Assembly (NCBI GenBank): GCA_964481135.1
Contig: CAYZSW010000006.1
Coordinates: forward strand, 1-63,642
Length of the DNA stretch: 63,642 nucleotides
Direction of reading: 5' to 3'
Origin: an uncultured Candidatus Saccharibacteria bacterium
GTDB lineage: Bacteria; Patescibacteriota; UBA1384; JAMDBS01; DAOVQR01
Below: the continuation of a report on this DNA, generated by a model with database tools
The DNA's letters: not shown here

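What the first reader, a model, noticed from the sequence alone, without database searches (positions are those of the whole stretch)
11857..12045. A complete tRNA-Thr(CGU) nested inside the D-arm of a second tRNA-Thr(CGU)-like gene, clamped by GC-rich complementary arms
On the minus strand, 12045->12023 reads GCCCACT-TA-GCTT-TAATGGTA-GA, and 11909->11857 reads GC-A-ATTCC-TTCGTAA-GGAAG-AGGTT-ATTGG-TTCAAAT-CCAAT-AGTGGGC-T-CCA. Joined, these make a 76-nt cloverleaf with a perfect 7-bp acceptor stem, a restored D stem (GCTT/GAGC), a canonical T loop and anticodon CGT. The 113 nt between the two pieces have three parts. The first is a 21-nt arm, CCTGCCCGCCAGTCGCTTAGC. The second is an intact 75-nt tRNA-Thr(CGU) (11927..12001). 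The third is a 17-nt arm, GGCGCTTGGCAGACGGG. The arms can pair (CTGCC/GGCAG, CCAG/TTGG, CGC/GCG), so the inner tRNA sits in the loop of a GC-rich hairpin planted in the outer D stem. The inner and outer genes share only about two thirds of their positions, so this is not a simple recent duplication. I see three readings. (a) It is an intron-like or split-tRNA arrangement. RNase P/Z release of the inner tRNA would leave two outer halves held together by the GC clamp, which recalls archaeal split tRNAs but is not something I know from bacteria. (b) A palindromic element carrying a replacement tRNA-Thr inserted into and killed the resident gene. T instead of the near-invariant A at outer position 14 argues for decay. 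(c) It is an assembly chimera. The arm sequence resembles the CCTGTCYGCC / GGCRGACRGG core of the GC islands at 33.2 and 56.9 kb and the junction of the tRNA-Asp repeats.
Basis: partly seen in the sequence, partly recalled or inferred. Interest (0 to 1): 0.9.

Follow-up and report, generated by a model that had tools for sequence, protein, structure and literature searches.

The report, continued
Best explanation
The resident tRNA-Thr(CGU) gene of this lineage is the GCCCACU-type 'outer' gene, which sits between the DUF192 gene and the 99-aa/GT2 genes. It has been split between positions 23 and 24 (the D-stem 3' strand) by a 113-bp cassette, with no target-site duplication. The cassette is an imperfect GC-rich palindrome belonging to a hairpin-element family dispersed in this genome. 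At its centre it carries a complete tRNA-Thr(CGU) gene of a different allele.

Shown: the nesting, the empty-site orthologue, the homologous cassette elsewhere, and the family relationship of the arms.

Inferred:
(1) The locus is transcribed by read-through from the DUF192 promoter. RNase P and 3'-end processing release the inner tRNA, which is the working tRNA-Thr(CGU). The arms act as a leader-trailer stem that lets the inner tRNA fold independently of the outer fragments.
(2) The outer gene is a recently inactivated relic. An extra helix emerging from the middle of the D stem is incompatible with the tRNA core, and no splicing signal exists.
(3) The cassette moves between tRNA-Thr(CGU) alleles, either by recombination or repair anchored in the conserved D-arm block GGTAGA|GCAAT, or by an unidentified trans-acting nuclease or recombinase. 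Because it carries its own tRNA, it compensates for the gene it destroys.
(4) Low demand for this tRNA makes transient loss tolerable. ACG is 2.1 per 1000 codons, and tRNA-Thr(UGU) can probably read ACG. This would explain why the locus shows serial disruption and allele replacement across the clade.
For: The nesting is real and reproducible.

Empty site: L092, whose GT2 protein is 73% identical, has an uninterrupted outer-type tRNA between the same genes. It is 72/76 identical and scores 59.9 bits against Rfam tRNA.

Inner allele: the inner type stands alone, without arms, at the syntenic site in L087, 71/75 identical.

Host phylogeny is not followed. The closest host, L013 (GT2 81%), has a tRNA only 68% (outer) and 71% (inner) identical.

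Second cassette: L113 is from a different lineage and gene context. It has a 5' tRNA-Thr relic cut in the D loop, then homologous arms, the same TAGC leader and a complete tRNA-Thr(CGU). The arms carry a compensated 1-bp deletion (GCCA..TGGC versus GCA..TGC), and the host 3' half is missing.

Relic in L092: 73 nt directly upstream of its intact tRNA align collinearly with the window's E1 + arm + arm + E2(1-11) once the inner tRNA is removed (z=10, 0/2000 shuffles). E1 there derives from yet another allele (GCCAATG type). The insertion point is the same, AGA|...|GCAAT.

Element family: similarity chain, motif enrichment, and presence/absence polymorphism of island C.

No BHB motif, no intron or other Rfam family, and no terminator inside the locus. 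ACG codons are rare.

The locus is a hotspot in relatives: orphan 5' fragments in L043 and L069, a hybrid tRNA in L098, and GIY-YIG ORFs with partial second tRNA-Thr copies in L019, L021 and L035.
Against: - The outer halves show no decay. The acceptor stem pairs 7/7, and all four differences from L092 preserve structure, including a compensatory C51-G63 to U51-A63 change. So the insertion is either recent or the outer structure is still under selection.
- No mobility gene, target-site duplication or repeated att core is present, so the transfer mechanism is inferred.
- Only two cargo-bearing cassettes and one cargo-less relic were found in about 115 loci. They could descend from one ancient insertion spread by recombination rather than from repeated site-specific insertion.
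- The window's own arms do not pair better than chance for their composition.
- There are no RNA data.
- The rest of the genome was not available. Other tRNA-Thr genes, RNase III, RtcB or an endonuclease could not be checked.
Confidence: 0.68

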